A stretch of 64,000 nucleotides of DNA from the NCBI GenBank assembly GCA_048938105.1, contig JBHLMN010000017.1, forward strand, positions 80,714-144,713, in the 5' to 3' direction. The stretch comes from Promethearchaeota archaeon (GTDB lineage: Archaea > Asgardarchaeota > Heimdallarchaeia > Hodarchaeales > Hodarchaeaceae). A program made the translations under genes and the position numbers. This document shows positions 11,446-26,866 of this stretch, in pieces (within the stretch, counting starts at the first letter, position 1; each line of letters starts with the position of its first letter). The notes under the pieces are model-generated. The model saw nothing but the letters and a program-made list of their open reading frames with translations, had not been told where the DNA came from and did no database searches.

Positions 11446-11454
11446 GTTCAGTAA

Positions 11455-11955
11455 TCAAATTTTTGAAAGAAGAGTTATAAACTCTTCCTTATCAAAGGAT
11501 TCATTCAGATCTAAAGTCAGAGGAGGAGAAAAGACAGGATCTATTCGATAAAAATCTGGTATAGCTAAAATATTCTTATCATGGGTTGCTATTTTCACGA
11601 CATTCCTGTCCTTCATCGTTGCTAAGATTGATGCATCTCGTCCTCCAATCCCATGGATTCGATAATCTCCTAAGAGAGTCATTGATTCTGCTAAAAGCCG
11701 CACATCAAAATCTGCAAGAATTACATTCTTAAGAGCAATGATTCCTAATGCTGCATTATAAGCTGTAGTAAAATCTACAGAAGGCTTCTTAGAAATAGAA
11801 TGCAGTACTTCTAATGGGATTATAGTGTTTAATACTATCTGTTCCTGGGATTGAAGAACTCCGTCCTTACCCCTTAACCAGCTTTTTACATTCTTTGATT
11901 CTGGTGCATAGGGATCATAATTATAAATCCAAATCATTGAATCAATAGTGATCAC
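11455..11955 (-). CDS. vapC: PIN-domain (VapC-like) toxin
   Basis: ITIDSMIWIY, E in IPLEV, GRDASILA and ATHDKN give the PIN acidic residues. Confidence 0.82.
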   Translation of the reverse strand: MITIDSMIWIYNYDPYAPESKNVKSWLRGKDGVLQSQEQIVLNTIIPLEVLHSISKKPSVDFTTAYNAALGIIALKNVILADFDVRLLAESMTLLGDYRIHGIGGRDASILATMKDRNVVKIATHDKNILAIPDFYRIDPVFSPPLTLDLNESFDKEEFITLLSKI

Positions 11956-11966
11956 CTTGAAATCCC

Positions 11967-12200
11967 TCAGAACAACTTTTCGAATTTGATTGGTGAATTT
12001 GTTTCTTGTTTCAGGGATTCGCTGATATTATCGGAGAGATTCTCAAACTCTTTAGCTGAAAGGACTTTTTTTATAAGCAGAAAATCTTTAATTATCGATA
12101 AGTTCAGTTCTACTCCAGCTGTTAATCCTAACTTTTTTCGCAATTCTCGCGGGATAGTAATTCTACCTTTTTCATCAATTGAAACTTTCATAAATACCAC
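11967..12200 (-). CDS. AbrB/MazE/SpoVT-family antitoxin
   Basis: SIDEKGRITIPRELRKKLGL motif; lies immediately upstream of the PIN gene. Confidence 0.88.
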   Translation of the reverse strand: MVFMKVSIDEKGRITIPRELRKKLGLTAGVELNLSIIKDFLLIKKVLSAKEFENLSDNISESLKQETNSPIKFEKLF

Positions 12201-12249
12201 TAAGTGGGCCGAGGTGGGAATTCATTAAAATTTTTCTGTATGGTCTTAA

Positions 12250-12777
12250 CTAGAGAAACTCCGTTAAAGTCTTTTTTTGTGATTCTAAAGCCAAGAGCTT
12301 TTCTTTTCTCCACAGTCCTCCACCATATCCATGTAATTTTCCATTACTAGCAATCACACGATGACAAGGGACAACAATAGCAACGGGATTATTCCCATTT
12401 GCTCGCCCAACTGCTCGGGAGGCAGATGATTTGCCTATTGTTTTTGCTATCTCTCCATAGGATCTAGTTTCTCCATAAGGAATCTTTTGTAATGCGTTCC
12501 AAACAGAGGTTTCAAAAGGAGTGCCTCGTAAATCTAGTGGAATAGAAAAATCACGTAATTTCCCGTTAAAATATTCTTTCAGCTCAATTTCAAGCTTATC
12601 AAGAATCGGATGTGATCCTTCAATGCAATCAAGTCGGTACCATTTTTTGTATCGTGTTTTAATGTTGAATAAGTCATGCCTATCTTTGAATTCAAGAAGA
12701 CAACAGCCTTTAGAGGTTGTACCAACGATTAAGTCACCTAAAGGGCTATCCAAATATCGATAGACTAGTTTAGACAT
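12250..12777 (-). CDS. ogt: Methylated-DNA-[protein]-cysteine S-methyltransferase (AdaB/Ogt)
   Basis: GTPFETSVWNALQKIPYGETRSY, RAVGRANGNNP and PCHRV active site. Start reassigned to ATG 12777 (MSKLVY), which overlaps the upstream stop. Confidence 0.93.
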   Translation of the reverse strand: MSKLVYRYLDSPLGDLIVGTTSKGCCLLEFKDRHDLFNIKTRYKKWYRLDCIEGSHPILDKLEIELKEYFNGKLRDFSIPLDLRGTPFETSVWNALQKIPYGETRSYGEIAKTIGKSSASRAVGRANGNNPVAIVVPCHRVIASNGKLHGYGGGLWRKEKLLALESQKKTLTEFL

Positions 12778-13312
12778 GGCGAGTCTCTCCAGGAGGGTGT
12801 CCAAATTCTTTAGAGAAAGCAGTTCTGAACCCACTATTGGACTTATATCCACAATGAGATGGGAGCTTTTTAACCCTCATTCCTTTTCTGAGTAATTCTT
12901 TTGCGTAAGCTAAGCGAAGTTTACGGTGAAATGCCATTGGAGTTAACTGATAATGATTTTTGAAATGCCGTCTAATAGTAGAGATCTCTACTCCTGAAAT
13001 CCGAATCAAAGTTTTCTCATCAATTCTCTTTGAAACATTCCTTTTCATATAAGAAAGAACCTTTTCCAACCAATTAGGAACATTATTGGGAAATAAATCT
13101 GGTTTACATCGTTTACAGCTTCGATATCCTGCAACAATTGCTTCTTCTCTCGTTGAAAAGAATACCATGTTTTTCTCCAATGACAATCTTGCTTTACATG
13201 AAGGAAGACAGAATATTTTCATCGTCCGCACCCCCACATAAAAATATCCATCGTATGAAGCATCACGTCTTATTCGTGCACTAACCATTTCTTCATACGT
13301 AAGTTTTTTCAT
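12770..13312 (-). CDS. adaA: Ada N-terminal Zn-binding methylphosphotriester methyltransferase + AraC HTH (AdaA-like)
   Basis: RDASYDGYFYVGV, IFCLPSCKAR, GYRSCKRCKP, AraC-type CGYKSNSGFRTAFSKEFG. Start ATG 13312 follows an AGGAG RBS. Confidence 0.88.
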   Translation of the reverse strand: MKKLTYEEMVSARIRRDASYDGYFYVGVRTMKIFCLPSCKARLSLEKNMVFFSTREEAIVAGYRSCKRCKPDLFPNNVPNWLEKVLSYMKRNVSKRIDEKTLIRISGVEISTIRRHFKNHYQLTPMAFHRKLRLAYAKELLRKGMRVKKLPSHCGYKSNSGFRTAFSKEFGHPPGETRHV

Positions 13313-13433
13313 GATGAGAACTCCTTTCACGATTATTTTAAACATTGTGCCTATTTTCGAGCAAGTAATTCGATATCACATGAATTCAGGATTTTCTTTT
13401 AATGAATAGAATGTGCAATGTAAAAAAAGATTA

Positions 13434-14819
13434 CTAGTAAATGAACGGAACACCGAGATCGTCAAGCTGCTTACGAATAACTTGATAAAGATCCAAATAT
13501 TCTGTTGAAGGCTTGCACCGCTGTACGTCATAACATTCTCGAAAATCTTTACCTAATGGAGCTTTCTCTATCCTATCTTCGTAAGTCTTGAGAAGAGTAA
13601 GAACAAGCTCATTAACATCACTTCTTGACAGTTGCTCTTTTGTTATTCCCAACCCTACTTCAGCAGCCATCCGTGCTTCCAATGGAGTAGCATAGTTTTT
13701 GTGTCTATTTTTTGCAACAGCCATTATCCAGAGATTTGAACCAGAAACAACTGAAGCAAGAGCGTGAGTTGCTGCCTCTCTTAAAACCATGGGTGTACAT
13801 GGTCCAGCAGCAGCATAACTAGCCGATAAAGAGATTAAATTACTGTTACGCGCTAACGCTTGGTAAGTTGTTGTCAATACCCAGAGAAGCTCCCGTGTTG
13901 TATTGCAGGTGTGCTTTAAGTGAAAGGGAAAGTAAACCATGAAATGTGCCTGATTCACAAGTAGACCCATTAAGTGATACGCAAGTCCAACAATAGCGGT
14001 TCCTTCGGGCCCTCCTGCATAACCACCCATAATAGGCCCAGCCAATGCCCCTACGAAACAGCCATAGCTGTGGAAATGTACCATTTTGTTCAGTAGAGAG
14101 TTATTCACTTTTAACTCCGTAATACTTGCCACAAAACGCCCATCAGTCAGTCTCTCTCCCCATTCAGGATTACTTGCTGCAATTTGCGCAGCATCAGATT
14201 CCGCAGTTCCAACACTTTTAAGAAAGATTCCAGGCCGACCCACTCTTCGGGCAGCCTCCCGAAACATCATGGCATGAGAAACAGATCCCTTTACTTCTGA
14301 GGGATATCCTGAGCGAATGGGCATCCCTTCTATCTCATCAAGGATGGGAGCACAGACTCCATCTGCTAGAGGCTCCTGCAAGTAAGCCATACTCATTGGG
14401 ACAAAAAGATCTTCATCACAAGTGATGTCAGGTGTGAACATACAGAAAGGCTTTCGAGAATCTGTTATTTGTCGATTTGAAATCTCTCTCGAATCACGTC
14501 CAAATCCTAATGTGAACCTGCCAGGGTAGTTTCCGAGAGCCTCTTTCACCTCTTCTTCTGTAAATAAAACCCTTCTATGAGTATCAGTCACCAAAGTTCC
14601 CACAGTCAGGTAAAGATCTTTTGCAGCGTCCCAAAGATTATCTACTAGAGTATTATCTTCTGGAACTGGTGTTTGGGGATCAAAATGAATATCATATTCC
14701 TTGATAATCCTCCGCAATTCAGGAACTAAGAATTTAAGGTCGAAATCCTTTTCTAAACAAACTGGCCCATTTTGTGCCCTGTCCAGTACTTCATTGATAC
14801 GCCATGGAGGAGTTCCCAT
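13434..14819 (-). CDS. mtmB: Second MtmB homologue, no pyrrolysine
   Basis: RAQNGPVCLEKDFD, VGRPG, ELKVN, GGYAGGPEGTAIV, AGPCT, FRECYD. Lys at the Pyl-equivalent site; start ATG 14819 follows a GGTGA RBS. Confidence 0.88.
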   Translation of the reverse strand: MGTPPWRINEVLDRAQNGPVCLEKDFDLKFLVPELRRIIKEYDIHFDPQTPVPEDNTLVDNLWDAAKDLYLTVGTLVTDTHRRVLFTEEEVKEALGNYPGRFTLGFGRDSREISNRQITDSRKPFCMFTPDITCDEDLFVPMSMAYLQEPLADGVCAPILDEIEGMPIRSGYPSEVKGSVSHAMMFREAARRVGRPGIFLKSVGTAESDAAQIAASNPEWGERLTDGRFVASITELKVNNSLLNKMVHFHSYGCFVGALAGPIMGGYAGGPEGTAIVGLAYHLMGLLVNQAHFMVYFPFHLKHTCNTTRELLWVLTTTYQALARNSNLISLSASYAAAGPCTPMVLREAATHALASVVSGSNLWIMAVAKNRHKNYATPLEARMAAEVGLGITKEQLSRSDVNELVLTLLKTYEDRIEKAPLGKDFRECYDVQRCKPSTEYLDLYQVIRKQLDDLGVPFIY

Positions 14820-14871
14820 TTTTCTCACCAAATATTTTTTCTTATTCAAAATAAACAGTAGATCTTTTGAT

Positions 14872-15668: not shown

Positions 15669-17267
15669 ATGGATCCCAAAGAAAAAAGATTTTTATCAGA
15701 AATTAGTGATATTTCAGGTCAAAAACTACTAAAAGTCGATAAAGTGGGATATGGAAGAAATGGTTATGTTGAGAAGCGTAATCGTATAATAAAATTATCC
15801 ATTTCCAATCTAAAACTCTATTATATTCCAGAAAGTATAGAGAATTTAAATGAACTAAAAGCTCTTCATATGGGGGGAAATTATCTAACTAAAATATCAG
15901 ACCCGATCCTAACCCTAAGGAATTTGGAAATTCTAGAAGCTTGGGACAATCGGATTGAATCAATTCCTAATGATATTGGAGTTTTGGAAAAAGTTTGGCG
16001 ATTACATCTCGCAGGAAATAAAATAACCGAGCTTCCGTTTTCTATTGGTAATCTGCCAATGAAGAAGCTGTATCTCAAACATAACAATGTTAGTTATGTT
16101 CCCGAAAGTATTGGGAACTGGATAAACCTCGATGTTTTTGGTTTACCTCTCAATAATCTTCCCTCACTACCAGAAACTATTAATGGTTGGAAAAACGTCC
16201 GTGTAATCTCAGTTTGGCAAAATAAGCTTAGAACGTTACCAGATGTTCAACTCAACGTTAAAGAATTACGAATTAATAATAATTATTTTACAGAAGTACC
16301 TCCTCGGGTGTACGAGATCAAACAATTAAGGAAACTTTGGTTGAATAGTAATCAATTGACAGAGATACCAGAAATTCCAAGAGGACATCTTCAAAATTTA
16401 TGGTTTCTAGATTTACAGAATAATCTCCTTTCTACATTACCTAAGTCCCTTCAGCAATTACCTAACCTCCGTGATTTAAGACTCTCAGGTAACCTATTTG
16501 ATTCCTATCCAAACTGGTTGGATTCTCTTAAAGGTTATAAAGTTGATACCACGACTCATAAGCGACAAGTAAAACAACCAGATTATATTGGAGTCAAGAA
16601 ATATGTGAAATATCTTGAAGATAATCACTTACCAATAGAACACTTAGTAGAGATCAAGCGACTCCAGAGATATCTCGAGAATGAGAAAGGTTTCTCCAGA
16701 ATTGTGAAAGCAAAGGCTGATGATGTTAAAGATTATATTGCACAAGGAGGTATCACAGCTTTTGCATTGAGATCTCTATATCTATATTTCTCTTGGCTTC
16801 AGGATTATCCATTACGTCGAATTATCAAAGAAGAATTAGAGAATTTTGCACAGATAATGAGTATCAATCTTCAAGATGTCAGAAGGCTTGTTGAGGAATC
16901 ACAGGTTGTGACATCATTATTAACAGTAGACGGAATAGAAGAAAAGACTCCTAATATTGTTTCTCAACCACCACAAGTTGTAGAGAAAATTGAGGGGGAT
17001 GAATGGGAGTCTTTCAAAACCAAACTAGATAAAACATCTATAAAAGCGTTAGAAATTCTCTTAAAGGCTTCAAAACCTAAAAACGCACTTAAAAAATTCG
17101 CTGATGGCCAAAACAGACTCCCAGAAACCCTTCTTGAATCTATTAATGAATTAGCATTGGAAATGATTGGTGATCTACTCATTGACCAAGAGACCTGTCA
17201 AATCACAGAAGTTAATTATAGAGAGAAATTACTTGAAATTTTCTTTAGAAAAGGGAAAGTAGAATAA
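15669..17267 (+). CDS. Leucine-rich-repeat protein with integrase-SAM-like middle domain and C-terminal TerB-C domain
   Basis: About 10 LxxLxLxxNxLxxLP repeats. The C-terminus (EESQVVTSLL...LPETLLESINELALEMIGDLLID) aligns with the C-terminus of the next gene. Confidence 0.82.
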   Translation: MDPKEKRFLSEISDISGQKLLKVDKVGYGRNGYVEKRNRIIKLSISNLKLYYIPESIENLNELKALHMGGNYLTKISDPILTLRNLEILEAWDNRIESIPNDIGVLEKVWRLHLAGNKITELPFSIGNLPMKKLYLKHNNVSYVPESIGNWINLDVFGLPLNNLPSLPETINGWKNVRVISVWQNKLRTLPDVQLNVKELRINNNYFTEVPPRVYEIKQLRKLWLNSNQLTEIPEIPRGHLQNLWFLDLQNNLLSTLPKSLQQLPNLRDLRLSGNLFDSYPNWLDSLKGYKVDTTTHKRQVKQPDYIGVKKYVKYLEDNHLPIEHLVEIKRLQRYLENEKGFSRIVKAKADDVKDYIAQGGITAFALRSLYLYFSWLQDYPLRRIIKEELENFAQIMSINLQDVRRLVEESQVVTSLLTVDGIEEKTPNIVSQPPQVVEKIEGDEWESFKTKLDKTSIKALEILLKASKPKNALKKFADGQNRLPETLLESINELALEMIGDLLIDQETCQITEVNYREKLLEIFFRKGKVE

Positions 17268-17547
17268 TTTTCTTATATAGCTTTTTCATCTTATGAACAT
17301 ATTATAAACCTTTTTAAATGACTTCTCATCCAAAGCTCAATCATTAGTGTCAATTAATATATGTTTTCACACTCTAGATACTGTTTGGAGTTATTCTGAT
17401 ATTGAAGAAGGTGTGTAATAATATTATAAACGTGCTATTGTATTATCCTCTTATTAAATATTATTCTCTTACCGACTCTGAATAACTTACACACAGGAGT
17501 TGTTGAGATAAGAAGAATTAAATGAGTTGTACAGGTAGCATCTTTCG

Positions 17548-20500
17548 ATGTCAACAGCTATAACAATCGTTACGATGAAGGCTAGAGATAAAGAACAGAA
17601 AATAGGAGACGCTCCATTAAGAATTCCAAAAAGATTCACAGATGTTTTTCCTGTGAAAACAAAAACAGTTATTATGGCTTGTCAAGGAAATTATACCCCT
17701 GAAATAGGAGATTATATATCTTTTCAGCTTTCTTCTGAAGACTCCTTAACCCACAAAGAATCTTCAGCTGAATTGTTTGTTCAAATTGATAAAATAACCT
17801 CATTTGAAAAAATATTATCTACTGATATTACTCAAGAGGAAATCGGATCAATTCTCGAAAGTTCTCCGAAGAGAATGGTTTGGATAGAAGGAATTGTCCT
17901 TGGATACTATTCTCCAAGTCGAAAAAGAATTTTAATGCCAAAAAATTCCCTTATAGGAATGATAGGAGAATTTACTGATTCAGAATCTATTAAGATTTTT
18001 ATAAACCTGTATATGGAATGTCTATTTCGCACATTCCCCCTTAAACTAATAAATTATTTAGTCTATAACTCAATCCAAGGAAGTCAGTTTTGTCAAAAAG
18101 GTAATAACAAGCTTTTAGAAGAAGTGATTCCTAAAATCCTAAAGAACATCGATGACTATTTCTTAAAGACAGAAACTAAAGATCTTCTTAATGTATTTAC
18201 ACAACAAACGAATTTTACCATTTCGAAAGAAACAGAAGATATTAATGATATCAAACATGAATATATTAATTGGCTTGCTTCTAATAAACCAATGGTCGAT
18301 TTCATAACTGATATATTGAAATATACTGAGAAAAAATTAAGTTTAATATTAAAATACCGAGGGAAGGTGGAAGTAAATCCAAGGCCACTTAATAGTCATA
18401 TCAGAAAAATAATTCAAACAGAACTTAAAAAATATGAAACAGGAGTACACCCAAAAAGGGAGACAAATCTAAAACAGCCAGTTTTTGCTGAATTTGAAAT
18501 TGGATTCAGTCCCGAACAACAAGTCAAAATATCGGTCATAGAACCCGAATTGCAATCTAAGGTCAGGAAAACCGATCGGAAACCAGACTCCATCAAAACC
18601 AATGAAAAGCGAGAAGATATTCGTGAACTTGAAGCTAAGATGAAACTCGCTGCTCATTCTCTGGACTTTAAAAAAGCATCCAAAATTCGAGAGAAAATTG
18701 AAGAAATAAAAAAAGAAAATATCGATAGAGAAATAGAAAAACAGCCTTCTGATTTTGAGGCACCTTCAGCAAAGAAACTTCTTAGAACACCCAAATTCGT
18801 ACCATTCGATCAATACTGGCCAACCTTAGATACAATGAATGAAGATCAAAGAAATTGGTACGATTATTGGGTGTCAGAAGCCGAAAATGGACATTATTAT
18901 CCGACTGATATATCTTATATTTTCTTATATATCTATCAAACACTTGATTATGAAGATAAAGAAAAAGGGTATCGTACATTACGAGATATTTGGATCCATT
19001 ATCGGAGAGAACATCCCAAACTGGATCGGTACTTGATTGATTGGATAACAGACTATGTCCTTCTTCATAAATGCCATTATGATCAAAGGACTATACTAAA
19101 GGAATTAATCAAATTTCACTCAAAATACACAGTCGAATGTCTTGATTCTATATTAACATTATTCCCCCCTCGCTCATTTAAAGAAATGCCTATAGATTGG
19201 ATTGATGTTCTGGCAAATAATAGTATCAAAAGTAGTTCATTTTATATGTCGAAGCCCAATGTCATGAACACAATAATCCCTGAAGTACTTGATGCAATTG
19301 ATCGATATTACCATGAGAATGAAAATATAGGTTTATTAGAGAAATTTAAACCCGATAAAGTTACACGGTTCGTCTTTGATCGTGCCCTCAAGGATGAAAG
19401 TTATCTTACTAAGACTATTGAAGTTTTATCTTACACAAAATCCCTATCTCTTCTTGTTTTCATCTCTGAGGTTGTAAGAACAACAGAGACTAAACTCCGT
19501 AAGTACTATCGTTTTCCAGCCCTTCCTCATATTTGTATATTAGAAAGAGAAATTGAAAAAGTAATTGAAACCACTTTTACGAAGTTTATCAGTGAGTTGA
19601 GTTTAACCGAAGGTGAAACACAATTATCCTTCATCGACGCAGCGCAAAAATATGTTAATAGAGTCGAGAATGAACCTGAAAAAAAACCGAAATTGTACCA
19701 GTTTCAACCTAATTATCAAGATATGACTAAATCTCAATTGAAATGGTATTTCTATTGGCGTAACCAGGTTAGGAACGGAAATTTTCTCCCTACTCAAATT
19801 GGATACATTATATTGTATATCTATGAAATAATCAATGATATTGGAATTCAAAATCATCAAGAGGGTTATAAACGACTATCAGCAATCTGGGAATATTACC
19901 GTATCGATAATCCCGAGTTAGACGAATATTTCCCTGAATGGATAGCGGAATATGCGATTCTAAATCAAATACCTGTTGATAATCTCGAAGAACTCTATTA
20001 TAAGATTTTAAATAGATTAGATAGAAGAGAACAAAGAGATCTTCGATATGAATTAACAGAACTTTTACTTTCTCAATACAAACATGAAGCTTTTAATAAA
20101 ATTCCAATCAAAATGATTTATGAGCTTGTTGGTTATACAAATTTTCTCCCCTATACACGATTAAATGACACAGTTCGAAATACGATAGATCAGCATGTAA
20201 ATACAATACTAAATGAAGTAAATTCTTACTATTTACAAAAGTACAAAAAAGGATTGCTAGATTGCTTCAGTCCAACCAAAAAACGGAGAATCCCCTTTGT
20301 TCTTGCTCGATATTTTGGTGACACTGATATATTAGAGGTAAAAGGTTACTCACGGCAATTTTTGAATTTTTTAGACAATATAATAAGATTTATCCAGAAT
20401 CGATTCCGTGATATTGAATTAGATACAACTAAAACCCGATTGAAGGTTGTTATTCCCGATCCTGAAGTTGAAGCACTAATTGATTATTATTTCATTGACA

Positions 20501-20997
20501 ACCTAAATGCCACAAACATCATGCCTAAATATTCAAAGATTGCATTACAGGTTCAAAGTGGCAATTTAGGCGTGGATCAATCTAAAATAAAGGCTTTAAC
20601 CGAGGAATCCGAGGAAATTCAATCCCTCTTAACAACCACCGAGATTGAGCAGGAAGAAGCTCTACCAGAGTTAGAAATGATTCAAATAGAAATTAAAAAA
20701 CCAATTAATAAAGAATCTGTTCAGGAAGCAGAAACAAGCGAATCAGATGAGTTGGAGCTGTTTCGATCAAGATTGACTGATCTCCAATTAGAAGTTTTGA
20801 GGATCTTAATAGTCAGTAAAAAGCCAAAAGAACAGTTAGACCAACTAGCAGAACAAACGGGTACTTTACCAGAAGCAATGATAGAATCCATTAACGAAAT
20901 CGCGCTTGAGATAATAGATGATATCATAATTGATTCTGAACTTCTCAACATTATTGATGAGTATTTGGATAGGATAAAGACGATTATCAAGATATAA
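17548..20997 (+). CDS. Shango SngA-like protein: divergent N-terminus, UVR motif, two TerB-N domains, TerB-C
   Basis: TerB-N signatures YWPTLDTMNEDQRNWYDYW...TDISYIFLYIY and FQPNYQDMTKSQLKWYFYWR...QIGYIILYIYE; TerB-C LPEAMIESINEIALEIIDDIIID. Confidence 0.8.
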   Translation: MSTAITIVTMKARDKEQKIGDAPLRIPKRFTDVFPVKTKTVIMACQGNYTPEIGDYISFQLSSEDSLTHKESSAELFVQIDKITSFEKILSTDITQEEIGSILESSPKRMVWIEGIVLGYYSPSRKRILMPKNSLIGMIGEFTDSESIKIFINLYMECLFRTFPLKLINYLVYNSIQGSQFCQKGNNKLLEEVIPKILKNIDDYFLKTETKDLLNVFTQQTNFTISKETEDINDIKHEYINWLASNKPMVDFITDILKYTEKKLSLILKYRGKVEVNPRPLNSHIRKIIQTELKKYETGVHPKRETNLKQPVFAEFEIGFSPEQQVKISVIEPELQSKVRKTDRKPDSIKTNEKREDIRELEAKMKLAAHSLDFKKASKIREKIEEIKKENIDREIEKQPSDFEAPSAKKLLRTPKFVPFDQYWPTLDTMNEDQRNWYDYWVSEAENGHYYPTDISYIFLYIYQTLDYEDKEKGYRTLRDIWIHYRREHPKLDRYLIDWITDYVLLHKCHYDQRTILKELIKFHSKYTVECLDSILTLFPPRSFKEMPIDWIDVLANNSIKSSSFYMSKPNVMNTIIPEVLDAIDRYYHENENIGLLEKFKPDKVTRFVFDRALKDESYLTKTIEVLSYTKSLSLLVFISEVVRTTETKLRKYYRFPALPHICILEREIEKVIETTFTKFISELSLTEGETQLSFIDAAQKYVNRVENEPEKKPKLYQFQPNYQDMTKSQLKWYFYWRNQVRNGNFLPTQIGYIILYIYEIINDIGIQNHQEGYKRLSAIWEYYRIDNPELDEYFPEWIAEYAILNQIPVDNLEELYYKILNRLDRREQRDLRYELTELLLSQYKHEAFNKIPIKMIYELVGYTNFLPYTRLNDTVRNTIDQHVNTILNEVNSYYLQKYKKGLLDCFSPTKKRRIPFVLARYFGDTDILEVKGYSRQFLNFLDNIIRFIQNRFRDIELDTTKTRLKVVIPDPEVEALIDYYFIDNLNATNIMPKYSKIALQVQSGNLGVDQSKIKALTEESEEIQSLLTTTEIEQEEALPELEMIQIEIKKPINKESVQEAETSESDELELFRSRLTDLQLEVLRILIVSKKPKEQLDQLAEQTGTLPEAMIESINEIALEIIDDIIIDSELLNIIDEYLDRIKTIIKI

Positions 20998-21021: not shown

Positions 21022-22353
21022 ATGTCAAAGAAAAGAATCCCACAACGTGTATCAGCTACAATTCTAAAATCCTTGAGTGCTGGAGTGGTACCCCGTATAG
21101 GTCTAGAACATATTGCTGTAGGTCGAAAAGAGGAAATAGAATCATTATTGGAAGATTTGGAAAATATTGAGGTAGGAAGCGCAGCTTTTCGATTTTTTAT
21201 TGGACGATATGGATCTGGTAAGAGTTTCTTAATTCAGTTGCTAAGGAATTATGCGATGGATCGTGATTTCGTTGTTGCTGATGTTGATTTATCCCCAGCT
21301 CGACGATTCATTGGCGGGGGAAATAAAGGCGTTGCTACATATCGTGAACTTATTACAAATATGTCCACAAAAACACGTCCTAGTGGTGGAGCATTAACAG
21401 CAATCTTGGAAAAATGGATCTCCAAAATTCAATCCATGGTAATCACTGAAAAAGGGATCAAACTTCAAGATCCTGTTTTTGTGGATTTGGTGGAAACAGA
21501 GATAATTAATGCTGTAAACAACATCAAGGACTTAGTTCATGGGTTTGATTTCGCAACAGTTATCTCAACATACTGGCGTGGGCACAAACTTGGTGAGGAA
21601 GAAACGAAAGAAAATGCTCTTAGATGGTTACGAGGGGAATATACCACAAAAACAGAGGCACGAAACGCTATAACAAATGTTAGTGTCATTGTCGATGATG
21701 ATTCATGGTACGATTATATCAAGTTAATGGCGCGATTTGTCACTGAAATTGGATATAAAGGACTATTAGTGTTTTTTGATGAGGCTGTGAACCTTTATAA
21801 GATCACCCATACTCAATCAAGAACCAATAATTATGAGAAACTTTTAACAATGTATAACGACACCATGCAAGGAAAAGCTGAGTACATTGGAATTTTTGTT
21901 GGTGGTACACCTCAATTTCTCGAAGATCGAAGGAGAGGCCTCTATAGCTATGAAGCACTACATTCACGTCTTGTTGAGAGTCGGTTTACCAAAAATGGAT
22001 TACGTGATATTTCAGGCCCTGTCATTAAGCTAGAACGTTTATCCTTAGAAGAGATTTTTGTACTATTAACTCGTGTTATGAACATTCATGCCCTCCACTA
22101 TAAATATGAAGCTAATTTAACAAATGATGAACTTCAAGAATTCATTAAAATAATAGTTAGCCGAATTGGGGCCGATAAACTGCTTACTCCACGAGAATTT
22201 GTCCGAGAATTTATTATTTTATTAAATATCCTTCGGAGGAACCCAGAAAAATCCTTTTTAGGATTAATTCAAGGAGAAGATTTCAAACCACAAGCTCCAA
22301 GCCAAGTAGAGGAATCCGTTAAAGGAACAGAATATGAGGAATTTACCTTATGA
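21022..22353 (+). CDS. DUF2791/BrxD-family P-loop ATPase (Shango SngB-like)
   Basis: SLSAGVVPRIGLEHIAVGR, Walker A GRYGSGKS, Walker B LLVFFDE, RRGLYSYEALHSRL, TPREF. Confidence 0.9.
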   Translation: MSKKRIPQRVSATILKSLSAGVVPRIGLEHIAVGRKEEIESLLEDLENIEVGSAAFRFFIGRYGSGKSFLIQLLRNYAMDRDFVVADVDLSPARRFIGGGNKGVATYRELITNMSTKTRPSGGALTAILEKWISKIQSMVITEKGIKLQDPVFVDLVETEIINAVNNIKDLVHGFDFATVISTYWRGHKLGEEETKENALRWLRGEYTTKTEARNAITNVSVIVDDDSWYDYIKLMARFVTEIGYKGLLVFFDEAVNLYKITHTQSRTNNYEKLLTMYNDTMQGKAEYIGIFVGGTPQFLEDRRRGLYSYEALHSRLVESRFTKNGLRDISGPVIKLERLSLEEIFVLLTRVMNIHALHYKYEANLTNDELQEFIKIIVSRIGADKLLTPREFVREFIILLNILRRNPEKSFLGLIQGEDFKPQAPSQVEESVKGTEYEEFTL

Positions 22354-24584
22354 GTGATGCTATTTTCAATCGTTTTCCTGCATTTATTCAAGAATGGATT
22401 TACTCGCATGGATGGGAGGAATTACGTGAAATTCAGGTTGCTTCTGCAAATGTAATTTTTAATACAAACGCTCATGTATTGTTGGCAACTGGAACTGCCA
22501 GTGGGAAAACGGAAGCAGCTTTTTTTCCTGCATTAACATTGATTTATGAAGATCCTCCTGCAAGTATTGGTATCCTTTACATCTCACCCTTGAAAGCTTT
22601 AATTAATGACCAATTTAATCGCATAGAGGAGTTGTTAGAAGAAGCAGAGATCTCCACTTGGCCCTGGCATGGAGATATTCCTCGAAATCTGAAAAGAAAA
22701 TTACTCGAAAATCCTAATGGAGTTCTTCAAATTACGCCTGAATCTATGGAAAGTTTACTAATAAATAGACACCAAGATCTTCGGAGAATGTTTGGAGATC
22801 TTCGATTTGTGATAATAGACGAAGTACACGTTTTTATGAATGCAGAGAGAGGAACTCAAATCCTATGTCAATTAGAACGTCTTGGAAACATCATTGGATA
22901 TCATCCCCGTCGTATAGGTCTGTCAGCAACTTTAAGCGATTATAGCTCTGCAGAAAAGTGGTTAAGTTCAGGAACAACCATTTCAATTAATACTCCGAAA
23001 GTACAAGGATTAATCAAAAGAATTAGATTGGCTGTTGAGAATTTCATTGATCCTAATCCGAACCCTGCTGGAATAATGCAGTATGGTGAAGGGGGCGAAT
23101 TAGTTGCCCCAGCTTCAGAACCCTCTTCCGAACCATATCCCTCAAATATGTATTTATTTGATCAAACGTTAAATGTTCAGTGTTTAATCTTTACTAACAC
23201 CCGAGAACGAGCGGAAAGCACAATTAATGCCCTTAGGGCAATTGCTGATCAAAAACGATATCCAAATAGGTACTATGTTCATCATGGGAGTATTTCTGCT
23301 TCTCTAAGGGAGGAAGCTGAATCAATTATGAAAACTGGAGACATCCCTTCTGTTACGGCATGTTCTGTTACGTTGGAATTAGGCATTGATATTGGATCCT
23401 TGGAAAGAATTATTCAGATTGGATCCCCACGAACAGTATCCAGTTTTTTACAACGGCTAGGCCGATCAGGTCGAAAGGAAAAAGATGTTTCTGAAATCCT
23501 TTTCATTCATTCGGAAGAAGAACCTTCGGATAACAAACCATTACCTTACTTGATACCTTGGGAATTGATTCAATCTGTAGCAATCATCAATCTTTATTTA
23601 GAAGAACGCTGGATTGAACCAATACAAGAGTTAAAATCTCCATTCAGTTTATTATATCACCAAACAATGTCTTCTCTGGCATCTGCAGGTGAACTCTCTC
23701 CTCAATCTCTTGCTCAACGAGTACTCTCCTTGACACCATTCAAGTATGTCTCTCAAGAAGAATATCGAACTCTTATTCATCATCTTATAGAATTGAATCA
23801 TATTGAACAAATTGAAGATGGAGGATTAATTGTAGGCCTTGATGGTGAACGAATTGTTCGAAACTATCGATTTTATGCGGTCTTTCCTGATGTGGTAGAG
23901 TGGACGGTGAAGAACACAGAAGAATTTGATGAGATAGGTAAAATTGGGCAATTATTTCTACCAGGTGATCGGTTTCCCCTAGCAGGATATACCTGGGAGG
24001 TTAAAGAAATCTATCCTGATCAAAAGGTGATAATTGTATCGAAAGTTGGTGGTCGAACCCGATATTTCTGGCCTGGAGGGATTGCCCCTGTTCATACTAA
24101 AATCCTTCAGAAGATGCGAAAAATCCTGTTTGAAGAAAAGATTTATCCTTACTTACAACCTGGTGCTGTTGAACGAATTCAACAGGTTAGAACATTAGCC
24201 AGAGAAGTAGAAATGGATAGACAAGTCCTTTTTCAGCTTGCTGGTCATAAATTTGTACTTCTACCTTGGGCTGGATCAATTTCGTTTCGAACAATTAGAA
24301 GAATATTGGAATTACATTCTGAAGAATTAGGGATCAGAAGTATTAGCGAACAGTCTCCCTATTTCTTTTTATTTGAAGCGGAAGACCAATCAAGAGATAG
24401 TCTTGAATCAGAGATCAAAAGATTATGTAACAGAATTGAATCACCTGCTGAGCTTATCAAAGAGGATGAAATTTTTGTCTGGCGGAAATTTGATCAATTT
24501 ATCCCGACTGATCTCCAACAACAGACATTAATGAATGACTACTTAGACTTGAAAGAAGTCAAAAGCATTATTAAGAACTGGTGA
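22350..24584 (+). CDS. Lhr-like SF2 DEAD/H helicase (Shango SngC-like), copy 1
   Basis: TASGKT, SPLKALINDQ, TPES, DEVH, LSAT, HHGS, LELGIDIG, QRLGRSGR. ATGA overlap with the ATPase gene. Confidence 0.9.
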   Translation: MSDAIFNRFPAFIQEWIYSHGWEELREIQVASANVIFNTNAHVLLATGTASGKTEAAFFPALTLIYEDPPASIGILYISPLKALINDQFNRIEELLEEAEISTWPWHGDIPRNLKRKLLENPNGVLQITPESMESLLINRHQDLRRMFGDLRFVIIDEVHVFMNAERGTQILCQLERLGNIIGYHPRRIGLSATLSDYSSAEKWLSSGTTISINTPKVQGLIKRIRLAVENFIDPNPNPAGIMQYGEGGELVAPASEPSSEPYPSNMYLFDQTLNVQCLIFTNTRERAESTINALRAIADQKRYPNRYYVHHGSISASLREEAESIMKTGDIPSVTACSVTLELGIDIGSLERIIQIGSPRTVSSFLQRLGRSGRKEKDVSEILFIHSEEEPSDNKPLPYLIPWELIQSVAIINLYLEERWIEPIQELKSPFSLLYHQTMSSLASAGELSPQSLAQRVLSLTPFKYVSQEEYRTLIHHLIELNHIEQIEDGGLIVGLDGERIVRNYRFYAVFPDVVEWTVKNTEEFDEIGKIGQLFLPGDRFPLAGYTWEVKEIYPDQKVIIVSKVGGRTRYFWPGGIAPVHTKILQKMRKILFEEKIYPYLQPGAVERIQQVRTLAREVEMDRQVLFQLAGHKFVLLPWAGSISFRTIRRILELHSEELGIRSISEQSPYFFLFEAEDQSRDSLESEIKRLCNRIESPAELIKEDEIFVWRKFDQFIPTDLQQQTLMNDYLDLKEVKSIIKNW

Positions 24585-26866
24585 GGGACCTGGCCTCAGC
24601 TCAATTTTATCGACTTGCTCCATGGATTCAAGAGTGGATTTATAGACAACAATGGGAGGTTTTTAGACCAATTCAAGAAGAGGCCTGTAAAGTCATTTTC
24701 GATACTCCTCATCATCTCCTATTAGCAACTGGAACTGCCAGTGGGAAGACCGAAGCTGCATTATTTCCTATCCTGACTCTATTAGATCAAAATCCTTCTG
24801 CAACTATTGGTGTTTTATACATTGGACCATTAAAAGCTCTTATTAATGATCAATTCCAGCGAGTTGAAGATCTCCTCCGAGAAGCGGATATAAAAGTTTG
24901 GCGTTGGCACGGAGATGTACCACAGAGCTACAAAACCAAATTAGTTCGAAATCCAAACGGATTACTGCAAATCACTCCAGAATCATTAGAAAGCTTGTTG
25001 ATTAATCGCACAACTGATTTACGTAGACTCTTTGGTGATTTAAGATTCATCATTATTGATGAAGTACATGCATTCATGCCTCAACTATCGGATCGCGGAA
25101 GACAAGTAATTTGTCAACTTGAGCGGCTTCAAGAGTATATTAACCAAATTCCTCGGCGAATTGGACTCTCTGCTACACTTGGTGATTATTCCTATGCTGA
25201 ATATTGGCTTGCTTCAGGTACAAATTTCCCTGTTATAACTCCTATAACCAACGAACCCTCAAAGAAACTTCGACTTAGTATTGAACATTTCACTGAAACA
25301 ACATGGCATCGAGCAAAGATGAGAGGTCAACCCCCACCACGTGGCCTTGACCTTCCATCACATAGATGGATCTTTGATTTAACTTTAGGAAGAAAATGCA
25401 TAATTTTCCAGAATGATAGAGAAAGAACTGAGCTAGTAACTCATGGATTGAGAGAAATCGCTAAATCAAAAGGATTACCAGATGTATATCACTCGCATCA
25501 TTCATGTATAGCAGGTTTACTTAGAGAAGATGCGGAGGAGTTTTTGAAAGAAAAGAACGGGGTTCCTCATGTTGTTGCAGCAACTATGACATTAGAGCTA
25601 GGCATTGATATATCTGATGTTGAAAGGATTATCCATGTTGATAGCCCTCATGCTGTCTCCACATTTGTACAACGTTTGGGAAGATCTGGTCGAGTAAATA
25701 ACGCGTCAGAGATGTTTTTTGCTGTTTCTGAGAATCCTAAATCTCCTCGTACGCCTCTTGCATATCAACTCCCTTATCGATTATTGCAAGCCATAGCAGT
25801 TGTCCAACTCTATCTTGATGAACGATGGATTGAACCAGCACTCCCACTTAAGAAACCGTTTTCAATTTTATTTCACCAAACCATGTCGATTCTAGCTTCC
25901 GCTGGTGAACTCTCTCCTCAAGCGTTAGCTCAAAGGGTATTATCACTTTCTCCTTTCAAGAATATTACTCAGCCTGAATTTCGCGTATTGTTAAACTACC
26001 TTATTAATAATGAGTATATTGAGCAAATTCAAGATGGTGGCTTGATTCTTGGACTAGCTGGAGAGAAGATAGTCCGAAACTACCGTTTTTATGCGGTATT
26101 TCGAGACTATGCGGTAGATTACTCAGTGAAGGAGGGGACGCGTGAGATTGGCCATATTGAACAACTACTCGAACCAGGTGATCAATTATTAATTGGGGGG
26201 TATCCTTACCGAATAACTCAAGCTTATCCTAAACAAAAACTCATGCTAGCTGAAAAGATATCGGAAAAACCATTATATGTGTGGCCAGGGAGAATCGCTC
26301 CTGTACATACTAGAGTAGTTCAACGAATGCGACGTTCTCTCTTTGAGGAAAAATCTTATTCATTCCTTCAGAGAGGTGCACGAATTCGTCTGGAAGAAGG
26401 CCGATTATTTGCTAAAAAGCATCAATTAGATAAAAGGGTCTTATTAAAAGAGTCAAAAAACAGATATAGCCTACTACCATGGATGGGATCCACACCGTTT
26501 AGAACACTTCTTCGTATATTAAAATTTCTGGGTCCTAACACCTTAGGGATAAATTGGGTGCAACCTGAACCTGTAACAACAACGGATCCCCATCTTCCAG
26601 TCCATGTTATTCAATTTGAAACCAGTAGTTATAATAACGCCAATTCGCTTTATAATGACCTATACAAACTAGTAGAAAACGTTTCAGAGAAAGAGCTACA
26701 CCAACTATATGATCAGTCTGAAAAATTCATTTATGAAAGATATCACCACTTATTACCAGTAGAATTACAACGGGAGGTATTAATTCATAATTATCTGGAT
26801 CTTAAAGAGGTAAAGAGTGTTATTCGTACGTGGGAGGATTATTCTATTTATTGGCAAACAGATTAA
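24581..26866 (+). CDS. Lhr-like SF2 DEAD/H helicase (SngC-like), copy 2
   Basis: Same motifs intact (TASGKT, DEVH, LSAT, QRLGRSGR); HHSC replaces HHGS. GTGA overlap with copy 1. Confidence 0.9.
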   Translation: MRDLASAQFYRLAPWIQEWIYRQQWEVFRPIQEEACKVIFDTPHHLLLATGTASGKTEAALFPILTLLDQNPSATIGVLYIGPLKALINDQFQRVEDLLREADIKVWRWHGDVPQSYKTKLVRNPNGLLQITPESLESLLINRTTDLRRLFGDLRFIIIDEVHAFMPQLSDRGRQVICQLERLQEYINQIPRRIGLSATLGDYSYAEYWLASGTNFPVITPITNEPSKKLRLSIEHFTETTWHRAKMRGQPPPRGLDLPSHRWIFDLTLGRKCIIFQNDRERTELVTHGLREIAKSKGLPDVYHSHHSCIAGLLREDAEEFLKEKNGVPHVVAATMTLELGIDISDVERIIHVDSPHAVSTFVQRLGRSGRVNNASEMFFAVSENPKSPRTPLAYQLPYRLLQAIAVVQLYLDERWIEPALPLKKPFSILFHQTMSILASAGELSPQALAQRVLSLSPFKNITQPEFRVLLNYLINNEYIEQIQDGGLILGLAGEKIVRNYRFYAVFRDYAVDYSVKEGTREIGHIEQLLEPGDQLLIGGYPYRITQAYPKQKLMLAEKISEKPLYVWPGRIAPVHTRVVQRMRRSLFEEKSYSFLQRGARIRLEEGRLFAKKHQLDKRVLLKESKNRYSLLPWMGSTPFRTLLRILKFLGPNTLGINWVQPEPVTTTDPHLPVHVIQFETSSYNNANSLYNDLYKLVENVSEKELHQLYDQSEKFIYERYHHLLPVELQREVLIHNYLDLKEVKSVIRTWEDYSIYWQTD

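What the first reader, a model, noticed from the sequence alone, without database searches (positions are those of the whole stretch)
15669..17267. Domain fusion LRR + integrase-core-binding-like helices + TerB-C: a possible plug-in sensor
Seen: about 10 LRRs (to about 16530), then a helical segment KADDVKDYIAQGGITAFALRSLYLYFSWL (about 16580-16830), then a C-terminus clearly paralogous to that of the SngA-like gene (LPETLLESINELALEMIGDLLID vs LPEAMIESINEIALEIIDDIIID). The middle segment resembles the phage-integrase N-terminal SAM-like DNA-binding domain (recognition by eye). The LRR N-cap is of the type common in Asgard LRR proteins. Inference: TerB-C serves as a docking module to the ATPase/helicase, letting a host-type LRR be recruited as an alternative recognition subunit.
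Basis: partly seen in the sequence, partly recalled or inferred. Interest (0 to 1): 0.82.

Follow-up and report, generated by a model that had tools for sequence, protein, structure and literature searches.

The report
LRR accessory protein of Asgard Shango
An Asgard archaeon carries, beside a Shango-type antiviral gene cluster, a conserved protein that joins a leucine-rich-repeat domain and an integrase-like helical domain to the same tail (TerB_C) found on the cluster's own SngA protein, and modelling suggests this tail plugs into the cluster's ATPase.

Summary
ORF 15669-17267 (+) encodes 532 aa in three parts:
- 11 SHOC2/Roco-type LRRs (aa 40-293);
- a four-to-five-helix domain (aa 300-395);
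- a Pfam TerB_C domain (aa 396-527), 34% identical to the TerB_C of the adjacent SngA.

Downstream lie sngA, sngB and two sngC helicase genes.

The middle domain has no significant sequence match. Its AlphaFold model, however, best fits tyrosine-recombinase core-binding (SAM-like) domains (Z 9.6-8.3, rmsd 2.1-2.4 Å). The end of TerB_C is a winged helix.

A co-fold of the TerB_C region with SngB scored ipSAE 0.62 against 0.00 for the best control. The conserved LPExL..INE..GD motif lies at the interface.

The fusion occurs only in six species genomes of one genus, and all six carry Shango. It is usually directly upstream of sngA, but lies 260 kb away in one genome. All domains are under purifying selection, and the LRR is the most conserved part.

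Most likely this is an accessory, separately transcribed Shango subunit that docks on SngB. A sensor role for the LRR is untested. I rate it a new variant of a known system. All evidence is computational.

The parts
15669..17267 (+). Gene for the LRR / core-binding-like / TerB_C protein (532 aa, P0001)
   Evidence: ORF, translation, Pfam and PADLOC hits, 15 orthologue clusters
15669..16553 (+). N-terminal cap (aa 1-39) plus 11 leucine-rich repeats (aa 40-293), SHOC2/Roco/Leptospira-LIC type
   Evidence: Pfam LRR_4/LRR_8/LRR_14. AF2 solenoid with pLDDT mostly 85-96 over aa 1-140, lower after. Foldseek E 4e-12 to 1e-10 against LIC LRR proteins, SHOC2 and the Roco LRR. Repeat starts listed.
16566..16853 (+). 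Helical middle domain (aa 300-395) with the fold of the tyrosine-recombinase core-binding (SAM-like) domain; no catalytic domain follows
   Evidence: AF2 pLDDT 85-92. VIA-align matches: 5vfz Z 9.6, 1a0p Z 9.3, 3nrw Z 9.0, 5hxy 8.9, 4a8e 8.3. Atlas rows 8-9 are integrases. Faint Pfam Phage_int_SAM_1/4 hits in two orthologues. No homology to SngA regions.
16854..17264 (+). TerB_C domain (aa 396-532): end of a long helix (aa 380-418), a disordered acidic linker (aa 419-444) and a winged helix (aa 445-527) carrying the LPETLLESINELALEMIGDLLID motif
   Evidence: Pfam TerB_C 32.1 bits. hhalign 99.2-99.6%. Winged-helix matches Z 6-7. Predicted SngB interface at aa 399-420 and 479-514.
17268..17547 (.). 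AT-rich 280-bp spacer between the LRR gene and sngA, with T-runs after the stop codon and 'atattataaac' present twice. It probably holds a terminator and sngA's own promoter.
   Evidence: Sequence read directly. Other genes are inserted at this point in L001 and L007, and the two genes are unlinked in L002.
17548..20997 (+). sngA (1149 aa): UVR motif, two TerB_N domains, TerB_C
   Evidence: Pfam and PADLOC SngA E 1.5e-98
21022..22353 (+). sngB (443 aa), a DUF2791/BrxD-like ATPase and the predicted docking partner of TerB_C
   Evidence: PADLOC SngB E 2.9e-187; Pfam BrxC_BrxD; co-fold
22350..24584 (+). sngC1 (744 aa), an Lhr-like DEAD/DEAH helicase
   Evidence: PADLOC SngC E 2.9e-225
24581..26866 (+). 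sngC2 (761 aa), a paralogous helicase 50% identical to sngC1
   Evidence: PADLOC SngC E 5.9e-210; BLASTP

Best explanation
The gene encodes an accessory subunit of the neighbouring Shango system (SngA, SngB, two SngC helicases). Its C-terminal TerB_C module consists of the end of a long helix plus a winged helix carrying the family's most conserved motif. This module is proposed to dock on the DUF2791 ATPase SngB in the same way as the TerB_C of SngA.

Docking would bring two extra modules to the ATPase/helicase machine. One is a SHOC2/Roco-type LRR, a protein-binding surface recruited from the host's own large LRR repertoire. The other is an integrase core-binding-like helical domain that may contact double-stranded DNA.

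The gene has its own transcription unit and is kept with Shango by selection, not by operon structure.

Shown: the domain architecture, conservation, linkage and co-occurrence.
Supported by models only: the core-binding-like fold and the TerB_C-SngB contact.
Inferred: that the LRR binds a viral or host protein, that the middle domain binds DNA, and that this modulates SngB and the helicases in defence.
For: Architecture.

TerB_C-SngB co-fold. The median ipSAE of three runs is 0.62 (0.66, 0.62, 0.62) and the best of three controls is 0.00. The pass mark was reached by 58 of 80 solved complexes and by 2 of 110 mismatched pairs. The runs share at least 84% of contacts, and the partner's pLDDT is at least 71. 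These counts hold only roughly, because my own alignments were used. No solved SngB/BrxD or TerB_C structure exists by sequence, so the pass is not from memory.

Interface conservation. Interface residues on TerB_C are more conserved across 30 diverse TerB_C domains than the rest (0.51 against 0.39, Mann-Whitney p 6e-4). They include the LPExL..INE..GD motif. On SngB they include the near-invariant KTRPxGGAL..W stretch.

TerB_C is the constant neighbour of sngB elsewhere. TerB_C-only proteins sit directly upstream of sngB in L015, L014 and L023. In L015, SngA is naturally split into TerB_N and TerB_C genes. N-termini of TerB_C proteins vary: TerB_N, coiled coil, FHA, TM2, TerB.

Linkage. The LRR gene lies directly upstream of sngA in the window, L003, L009/L010 and L011/L012. 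It is 1.5 kb and 6 kb upstream, with inserted genes, in L001 and L007. These arrangements occur in at least four different upstream contexts.

Co-occurrence in 82 genomes of the class. The fusion is present in 6, all of which carry SngB. SngB is present in 7. No genome has the fusion without Shango. G000 has only two TerB_C domains, both at this locus.

Selection. dN/dS is 0.115 (LRR), 0.14 (middle) and 0.255 (TerB_C). The protein diverges at a rate like SngA (77-84% against 70-76% identity), while SngB and SngC stay at 88-96%.
Against: - No experiment exists. The co-fold is a model's own confidence.
- In one complete genome (CP070760.1) the gene lies 260 kb from the Shango genes, and other genes are inserted between them in two genomes, so co-transcription is unlikely.
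- All six carriers belong to one genus, so the co-occurrence amounts to few independent events.
- Related Shango loci work without it: G050 and L020, both also with two helicases.
- The LRR is the most conserved part, which is unlike an arms-race sensor.
- The TerB_C winged helix and the core-binding-like domain could both be DNA binders, which would suit a regulator as well.
- The middle-domain fold match (Z 9.6) lies within the range that helical bundles can reach by chance, according to the tool's own note.
Confidence: 0.55

Rival explanations
1. The protein docks on SngB as above but acts as a brake. It competes with SngA for the same SngB surface and keeps the ATPase/helicase machine off, or retargets it, until the LRR is occupied.
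For: Both TerB_C domains share the predicted interface motif: 15 of 35 interface residues are identical against 31 of 96 elsewhere. There is one ATPase gene but two TerB_C proteins. The gene is separately transcribed and can be unlinked, as regulators often are. The conserved LRR would fit a conserved host ligand.
Against: Nothing distinguishes activation from inhibition. SngB-type ATPases are probably oligomers, so both TerB_C proteins could bind at once (inference). Shango loci without the gene (G050, L020) show no obvious substitute brake.
Confidence: 0.17
2. The protein is a DNA-binding regulator or a chromatin/DNA-associated LRR adaptor that does not join the Shango complex. The winged helix of TerB_C and the core-binding-like domain bind DNA (for example the sngA promoter region), and the LRR receives a signal.
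For: The TerB_C end matches MarR, ArsR and LysR winged helices at Z 6-7, and the middle domain matches DNA-binding core-binding domains. The spacer before sngA carries a repeated 11-mer. The gene is upstream of, and separate from, the operon.
Against: The conserved face of the winged helix is predicted to contact SngB with high confidence. TerB_C is acidic to neutral (pI 5.6 for the winged helix). TerB_C is otherwise found only in SngA-position proteins next to sngB. The winged-helix matches include protein-binding winged helices of STAND/ORC ATPases as often as DNA binders.
Confidence: 0.15
3. The fusion is an evolutionary accident with no role in Shango: a host LRR gene that captured a TerB_C fragment and persists as lineage-specific baggage.
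For: It is restricted to six species of one genus and lies 260 kb from Shango in one genome.
Against: Purifying selection acts on all three domains at dS about 0.8. The full-length architecture is kept in 16 clusters. Linkage is kept across at least four genomic contexts. It never occurs without Shango.
Confidence: 0.05

Closest known systems
Shango anti-phage system (SngA TerB-domain protein, SngB DUF2791 ATPase, SngC Lhr-like helicase; Millman et al. 2022, doi 10.1101/2022.05.11.491447; Johnson et al. 2022, doi 10.1101/2022.11.11.516204)
   Same: The neighbouring genes are clear SngA, SngB and SngC (PADLOC E 1e-98 to 1e-225). The finding shares SngA's TerB_C tail. Shango is reported as enriched in Asgard archaea (doi 10.1101/2023.09.13.557551).
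   Different: Described Shango has three genes. This locus has five: an extra TerB_C protein that lacks TerB_N and carries LRR and core-binding-like domains, a doubled TerB_N in SngA, and two helicases. No role for TerB_C has been published in the library searched.
SngA-position proteins with TerB_C but other N-termini (TerB_C-only P0023 and P0046; FHA+TerB_N+TerB_C P0043; TM2- or TerB-containing forms)
   Same: TerB_C sits at the C-terminus with the same motif, and the N-terminal module varies. They lie directly next to sngB.
   Different: Those proteins replace SngA, whereas this one is additional to a complete SngA. None of the 76 scanned representatives has an LRR.
Core-binding (N-terminal SAM-like) domain of tyrosine recombinases (XerD 1a0p, Brujita integrase 5vfz, Haloarcula integrase N-domain 3nrw, lambda Int 2oxo) and its non-recombinase derivative in Ndc10
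   Same: The predicted fold of aa 300-395 superposes over 77-88 residues at 2.1-2.5 A, Z 8.3-9.6.
   Different: No catalytic domain follows. No Pfam hit reaches threshold (best 14.5 bits against a cut-off of 22.3, and in an orthologue). DNA binding is untested. As in Ndc10, it would be a recombinase-independent use of the fold.
SHOC2 / Roco / Leptospira LIC-type LRR scaffolds, and LRR sensors of eukaryotic NLR and TLR immune receptors
   Same: 23-residue LRR units with a curved solenoid; Foldseek E 1e-10 to 4e-12 at 27-32% identity. An LRR is joined to an NTPase-driven immune machine.
   Different: Here the LRR is not fused to the NTPase. It is predicted to reach it through a separate docking domain. 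There is no NACHT/NB-ARC, TIR or Roc-COR domain, and no sign of diversifying selection.

Membership tests
Pfam TerB_C (PF15615) | Score above the curated gathering threshold, and a profile match to bona fide TerB_C domains | tested here: met
   32.1 bits against a cut-off of 26.3, aa 395-520. hhalign probability 99.2% to Asgard SngA C-termini and 99.6% to short SngA proteins.
SngA (Shango component A) | TerB_N domain(s) N-terminal to TerB_C | tested here: not met
   No TerB_N hit in P0001. The PADLOC SngA model matches only its C-terminal part (profile 313-526 of 528, E 5e-16). hhalign shows that only aa 396-527 are homologous.
Shango system (the locus) | Adjacent genes for SngA, SngB (DUF2791 ATPase) and SngC (Lhr-like helicase) | tested here: met
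   PADLOC SngA 1.5e-98, SngB 2.9e-187, SngC 2.9e-225 and 5.9e-210, co-oriented with overlapping stops and starts.
Shango system (the locus) | Protects against viruses | not testable with these tools
   Shown only for bacterial Shango in E. coli and P. aeruginosa. No assay exists for Asgard loci.
Leucine-rich repeat proteins | Tandem LxxLxLxxNxL units forming a solenoid | tested here: met
   Pfam LRR_4, LRR_8 and LRR_14; 11 units; AF2 solenoid; Foldseek to SHOC2/Roco/LIC LRRs.
Phage integrase N-terminal SAM-like / core-binding domain | Significant sequence match to a Phage_int_SAM model | tested here: not met
   P0001 gives no hit. Orthologues give E 0.045 (14.5 bits against a cut-off of 22.3) and E 0.15. 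A PDB profile search found nothing.
Phage integrase N-terminal SAM-like / core-binding domain | Four-to-five-helix core-binding fold | tested here: inconclusive
   The top rows are all of this fold (Z 9.6, 9.3, 9.0, 8.9, 8.3; rmsd 2.1-3.4 A; 77-88 residues), and integrase clusters appear in the Atlas search. However, both sides rest on a predicted model, Foldseek gave no E below 0.7, and helical bundles can reach such Z values by chance.
Tyrosine recombinases | C-terminal catalytic domain with the RKHRH-Y active site | tested here: not met
   The middle domain is followed by TerB_C, and no Phage_integrase hit was found.
NLR / STAND immune receptors | A central NACHT/NB-ARC-type NTPase in the same polypeptide as the repeat sensor | tested here: not met
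   No NTPase domain in P0001. The ATPase (SngB) is a separate gene of the DUF2791/BrxD family.

The most novel reading that the evidence does not exclude
In archaea of the lineage nearest to eukaryotes, an LRR protein-recognition module is wired to an ATPase/helicase antiviral machine. The wiring is not a fusion but a portable docking domain (TerB_C) that binds the hub ATPase SngB, with an integrase-derived DNA-clamp domain alongside. This would make TerB_C the general adaptor through which Shango swaps input modules. It would also be the first prokaryotic defence system that uses an LRR as a plug-in recognition subunit.
Probability: 0.25. Interest if true: 0.85.

Novelty: new variant of a known kind. 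Interest (0 to 1): 0.6.

Why it matters
Shango is a validated anti-phage system whose mechanism is unknown, and no function has been assigned to TerB_C. This locus yields a concrete, testable proposal. TerB_C would be the module that attaches variable input domains to the SngB ATPase, and named residues sit at the predicted interface.

It also shows an LRR, the hallmark recognition module of eukaryotic innate immunity, tied to a defence machine in Heimdall/Hodarchaeales-type Asgard archaea. A host-derived domain has been added there to a system acquired from bacteria: SngB is about 60% identical to bacterial SngB.

If the docking holds, Shango could be dissected, and perhaps retargeted, by exchanging what is fused to TerB_C.

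Tried and rejected
1. Is the middle domain part of the SngA homology region? The PADLOC SngA alignment spanning aa 307-524 suggested so. Rejected: hhalign of aa 296-395 against the regions preceding TerB_C in 31 short and 20 long SngA proteins gave probability 0.1%.

2. Sequence evidence for the core-binding-like domain.
   - PDB profile search with 16 orthologues: only noise.
   - Foldseek against PDB on aa 300-532: no E below 0.7.
   - Only the exhaustive VIA-align search gave a clear family of matches.

3. One helicase per TerB_C protein (two and two). Rejected: G050 and L020 have two helicases with a single TerB_C protein.

4. Is the divergent TPR protein upstream of the G050 Shango an alternative TerB_C carrier? 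Rejected: hhalign probability 0.3%.

5. Is the LRR protein's TerB_C a recent duplicate of the neighbour's? The tree places the LRR family on its own long branch, not beside the Asgard SngA clade. Deep nodes are unresolved.

6. Other LRR+TerB_C fusions. None among 76 scanned TerB_C representatives, none among large ESM Atlas clusters, and none in 76 other genomes of the class. These searches are not exhaustive for the whole TerB_C family.

7. Paralogues of the middle domain. Found only in the six orthologous genes among 82 genomes.

9. Literature. The paper that defined TerB-N and TerB-C (Anantharaman, Iyer and Aravind 2012) could not be retrieved. What I say of it rests on citations and on my own memory. 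No mechanistic Shango paper was found.
Full report
**What is there**

The window holds one ORF at exactly 15669-17267 (+), 532 aa. Pfam finds LRR_4, LRR_8 and LRR_14 in the N-terminal half. It finds TerB_C at aa 395-520, at 32.1 bits against a cut-off of 26.3.

Four co-oriented genes follow after a 280-bp spacer:
- sngA (17548-20997; UVR motif, two TerB_N domains, TerB_C);
- sngB (21022-22353; DUF2791/BrxC_BrxD ATPase);
- two Lhr-like helicases, sngC1 (22350-24584) and sngC2 (24581-26866), which are 50% identical to each other.

The PADLOC E-values for these genes run from 1.5e-98 to 2.9e-225.

BLASTP aligns aa 397-498 of the LRR protein to aa 1007-1121 of SngA at 34% identity, E 9e-14. Profile comparison gives 99.2-99.6% probability.

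**Structure of the three parts**

An AlphaFold2 model of the whole protein has a mean pLDDT of 79.1. A second model of aa 300-532 has a mean pLDDT of 79.5. Together they show:
- an LRR solenoid;
- a short disordered hinge (aa 296-306);
- a compact helical domain (helices 309-318, 324-340, 350-358 and 364-376);
- a long helix (aa 380-418);
- a disordered acidic linker (aa 419-444);
- three helices plus a beta hairpin and a final helix (aa 445-527).

*LRR.* It matches Leptospira LIC proteins, SHOC2 and the Chlorobium Roco LRR (Foldseek E 4e-12 to 1e-10, 27-32% identity). These are protein-binding scaffolds. Its N-terminal cap recurs in many other LRR proteins of the same class.

*Middle domain.* It has no significant sequence match:
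- Pfam at E up to 10 gives nothing for this protein.
- It gives only 14.5 bits (Phage_int_SAM_1, E 0.045) and E 0.15 (Phage_int_SAM_4) for two orthologues.
- A PDB profile search gives noise.
- Foldseek against PDB gives nothing below E 0.7.

The exhaustive structural search does give a clear answer, with every top row a tyrosine-recombinase core-binding domain or a known derivative:

| Match | Z | rmsd (A) | Residues aligned |
|---|---|---|---|
| Brujita integrase | 9.6 | 2.4 | 88 |
| XerD | 9.3 | 2.1 | 81 |
| Haloarcula integrase N-domain | 9.0 | 2.2 | 83 |
| XerA | 8.9 | 3.4 | 87 |
| archaeal Xer | 8.3 | 2.3 | 77 |
| IntI | 7.9 | 2.5 | 77 |
| Ndc10 | 7.5 | 2.9 | 84 |

Lambda Int, XerH and MrpR/SroF follow lower down the list. 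The ESM Atlas search also returns integrase clusters.

Caveats apply. The tool itself warns that helical bundles can reach such Z values by chance. One side of the comparison is a prediction. Common ancestry is not shown.

The domain is not homologous to anything in SngA (hhalign probability 0.1%). Among 82 genomes of the class it occurs only in this gene family.

*End of TerB_C.* It is a winged helix. It matches MarR and ArsR regulators and, equally, the winged helices of ORC/Cdc6 and STAND/NLR ATPases at Z 6-7.

**Is TerB_C a docking module?**

A co-fold of SngB (30-row alignment) with aa 380-532 (45-row alignment) gave ipSAE 0.66, 0.62 and 0.62, against 0.00 for the best of three controls.
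- That pass mark was reached by 58 of 80 solved complexes and by 2 of 110 mismatched pairs.
- The runs agree in at least 84% of contacts, and the partner's pLDDT is at least 71.
- The counts hold only roughly, because my own alignments were used.
- No SngB/BrxD or TerB_C structure exists in the PDB by sequence, so the pass is not recall of a solved complex.

The interface uses aa 399-420 and 479-514, which include the motif LPETLLESINELALEMIGDLLID. On SngB it uses residues 7-43, 73-80, 117-137, 188-191 and 341-375. The SngB stretch 116-137 is nearly invariant across archaeal and bacterial SngB.

Interface positions of TerB_C are more conserved across diverse family members than the rest of the domain (0.51 against 0.39, p 6e-4).

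Independent genomic support comes from other loci:
- TerB_C-only proteins sit immediately upstream of sngB in three unrelated loci.
- One of these loci has SngA naturally split into a TerB_N gene and a TerB_C gene.
- Across 76 representatives TerB_C is always C-terminal, while the N-terminus varies: TerB_N in 22, coiled coils in about 15, FHA, and many unassigned. Atlas clusters add TM2 and TerB.

TerB_C, not TerB_N, is therefore the constant partner of SngB.

**Distribution and linkage**

Only 15 clusters of homologues exist. All are 513-532 aa, 67-85% identical and of the same architecture. Their sources label them Heimdall-, Hod-, Thor- or Promethearchaeota.

Among 82 species genomes of the class, the full-length gene is present in six, all in the window's own genus. 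SngB is present in those six and in one more, G050. No genome has the fusion without Shango. G000 has just two TerB_C domains, both at this locus.

Position of the gene relative to sngA:
- directly upstream in the window, L003, L009/L010 and L011/L012;
- separated from it by two small genes in L001;
- separated from it by three genes (6 kb) in L007;
- 260 kb away in the complete genome CP070760.1.

The upstream flank differs among these loci, with at least four contexts. The linkage is therefore maintained while the surroundings change.

The spacer has T-runs after the stop codon and is AT-rich. Taken with the insertions, this argues for a separate transcription unit.

Related Shango loci lack the gene: G050, L020, and the bacterial L021 and L023. 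G050 and L020 still have two helicases. So the gene is an optional addition, and it is not paired with the second helicase.

**Evolution**

dN/dS is 0.115 for the LRR, 0.14 for the middle domain and 0.255 for TerB_C, at dS about 0.8. The gene is functional, and the LRR is its most conserved part (86% identity).

Identity between the window and its relatives:

| Protein | Identity |
|---|---|
| LRR-TerB_C protein | 77-84% |
| SngA | 70-76% |
| SngB | 93-96% |
| SngC1/SngC2 | 88-96% |
| Flanking housekeeping genes, nearest relative (L007) | 85-91% |

The two TerB_C proteins are thus the fast-evolving components.

A tree of 107 TerB_C domains puts the LRR family on one long branch. That branch lies apart from the Asgard SngA clade, and the deep nodes are unresolved. 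The tail is therefore not a recent copy of the neighbour's.

Asgard SngB is 57-63% identical to bacterial SngB. This points to acquisition of Shango from bacteria, followed by addition of a host-type LRR.

**Most likely mechanism**

I think the protein is an accessory Shango subunit that docks on SngB through TerB_C. It would present an LRR (protein ligand unknown) and a core-binding-like domain (possibly DNA) to the ATPase/helicase machine (confidence 0.55).

The same contact could instead make it a competitor of SngA, that is, a brake (0.17). It could also be a DNA-binding regulator outside the complex (0.15), or baggage without function (0.05).

The conserved LRR argues against a sensor locked in an arms race. 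It is compatible with recognition of a conserved viral or host protein.

**Comparison and novelty**

The locus is a member of the Shango family. The protein itself fails the SngA definition because it has no TerB_N. It is also not a recombinase or an NLR.

I found no description of an LRR-bearing Shango component, or of a role for TerB_C, in the literature searched.

I rate it a new variant of a known kind. Interest is moderate to high for three reasons: it makes Shango's architecture testable, it ties an LRR to a defence machine, and it does so in the archaeal lineage nearest to eukaryotes. All functional evidence is computational, and the family is confined to one genus.

Noticed in passing
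window 22350-26866: Two tandem SngC helicase paralogues (50% identical) with a 4-bp overlap. The doubling is kept in all Asgard Shango loci seen, including those without the LRR gene (G050/L013, L020). The bacterial loci L021 and L023 have one helicase.
   Followed up: partly
window 17548-20997: SngA is 1149 aa. It has an unassigned region of about 350 aa at the N-terminus, a UVR motif (aa 358-390), two TerB_N domains and TerB_C. Similar long forms (1000-1256 aa) are common among the TerB_C representatives and also occur in a Bacillota-like locus (L021).
   Followed up: partly
window 21022-22353: Asgard SngB is 57-63% identical over its full length to SngB of Chloroflexota, Bacillota, Planctomycetota and others. 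This is unusually high across domains and suggests fairly recent transfer of Shango from bacteria into this archaeal genus.
   Followed up: partly
window 17268-17547: The 11-mer 'atattataaac' occurs twice (near 17300 and 17421) in the spacer before sngA. It may be a promoter or operator element.
   Followed up: no
L015:2-3134: A naturally split SngA: a TerB_N-only gene, then a 294-aa TerB_C-only gene whose end overlaps the start of sngB.
   Followed up: partly
L013 (G050:C58) 16417-18357: In the one genus member with Shango but no LRR-TerB_C gene, a 646-aa TPR protein is transcribed divergently from sngA. It has no TerB_C (hhalign probability 0.3%), and its relation to the system is unknown.
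   Followed up: partly
L023:6160-6880: A HEPN/minimal-nucleotidyltransferase toxin-antitoxin pair sits directly upstream of a three-gene Shango-like locus whose first protein has TerB_C but no TerB_N. This looks like a typical defence-island context.
   Followed up: no
window 10057-14849: Two MtmB-family (monomethylamine methyltransferase-like) genes without an in-frame TAG flank an Ada/Ogt-like pair and a nitroreductase-family gene upstream of the finding. The same block is syntenic in L007.
   Followed up: no
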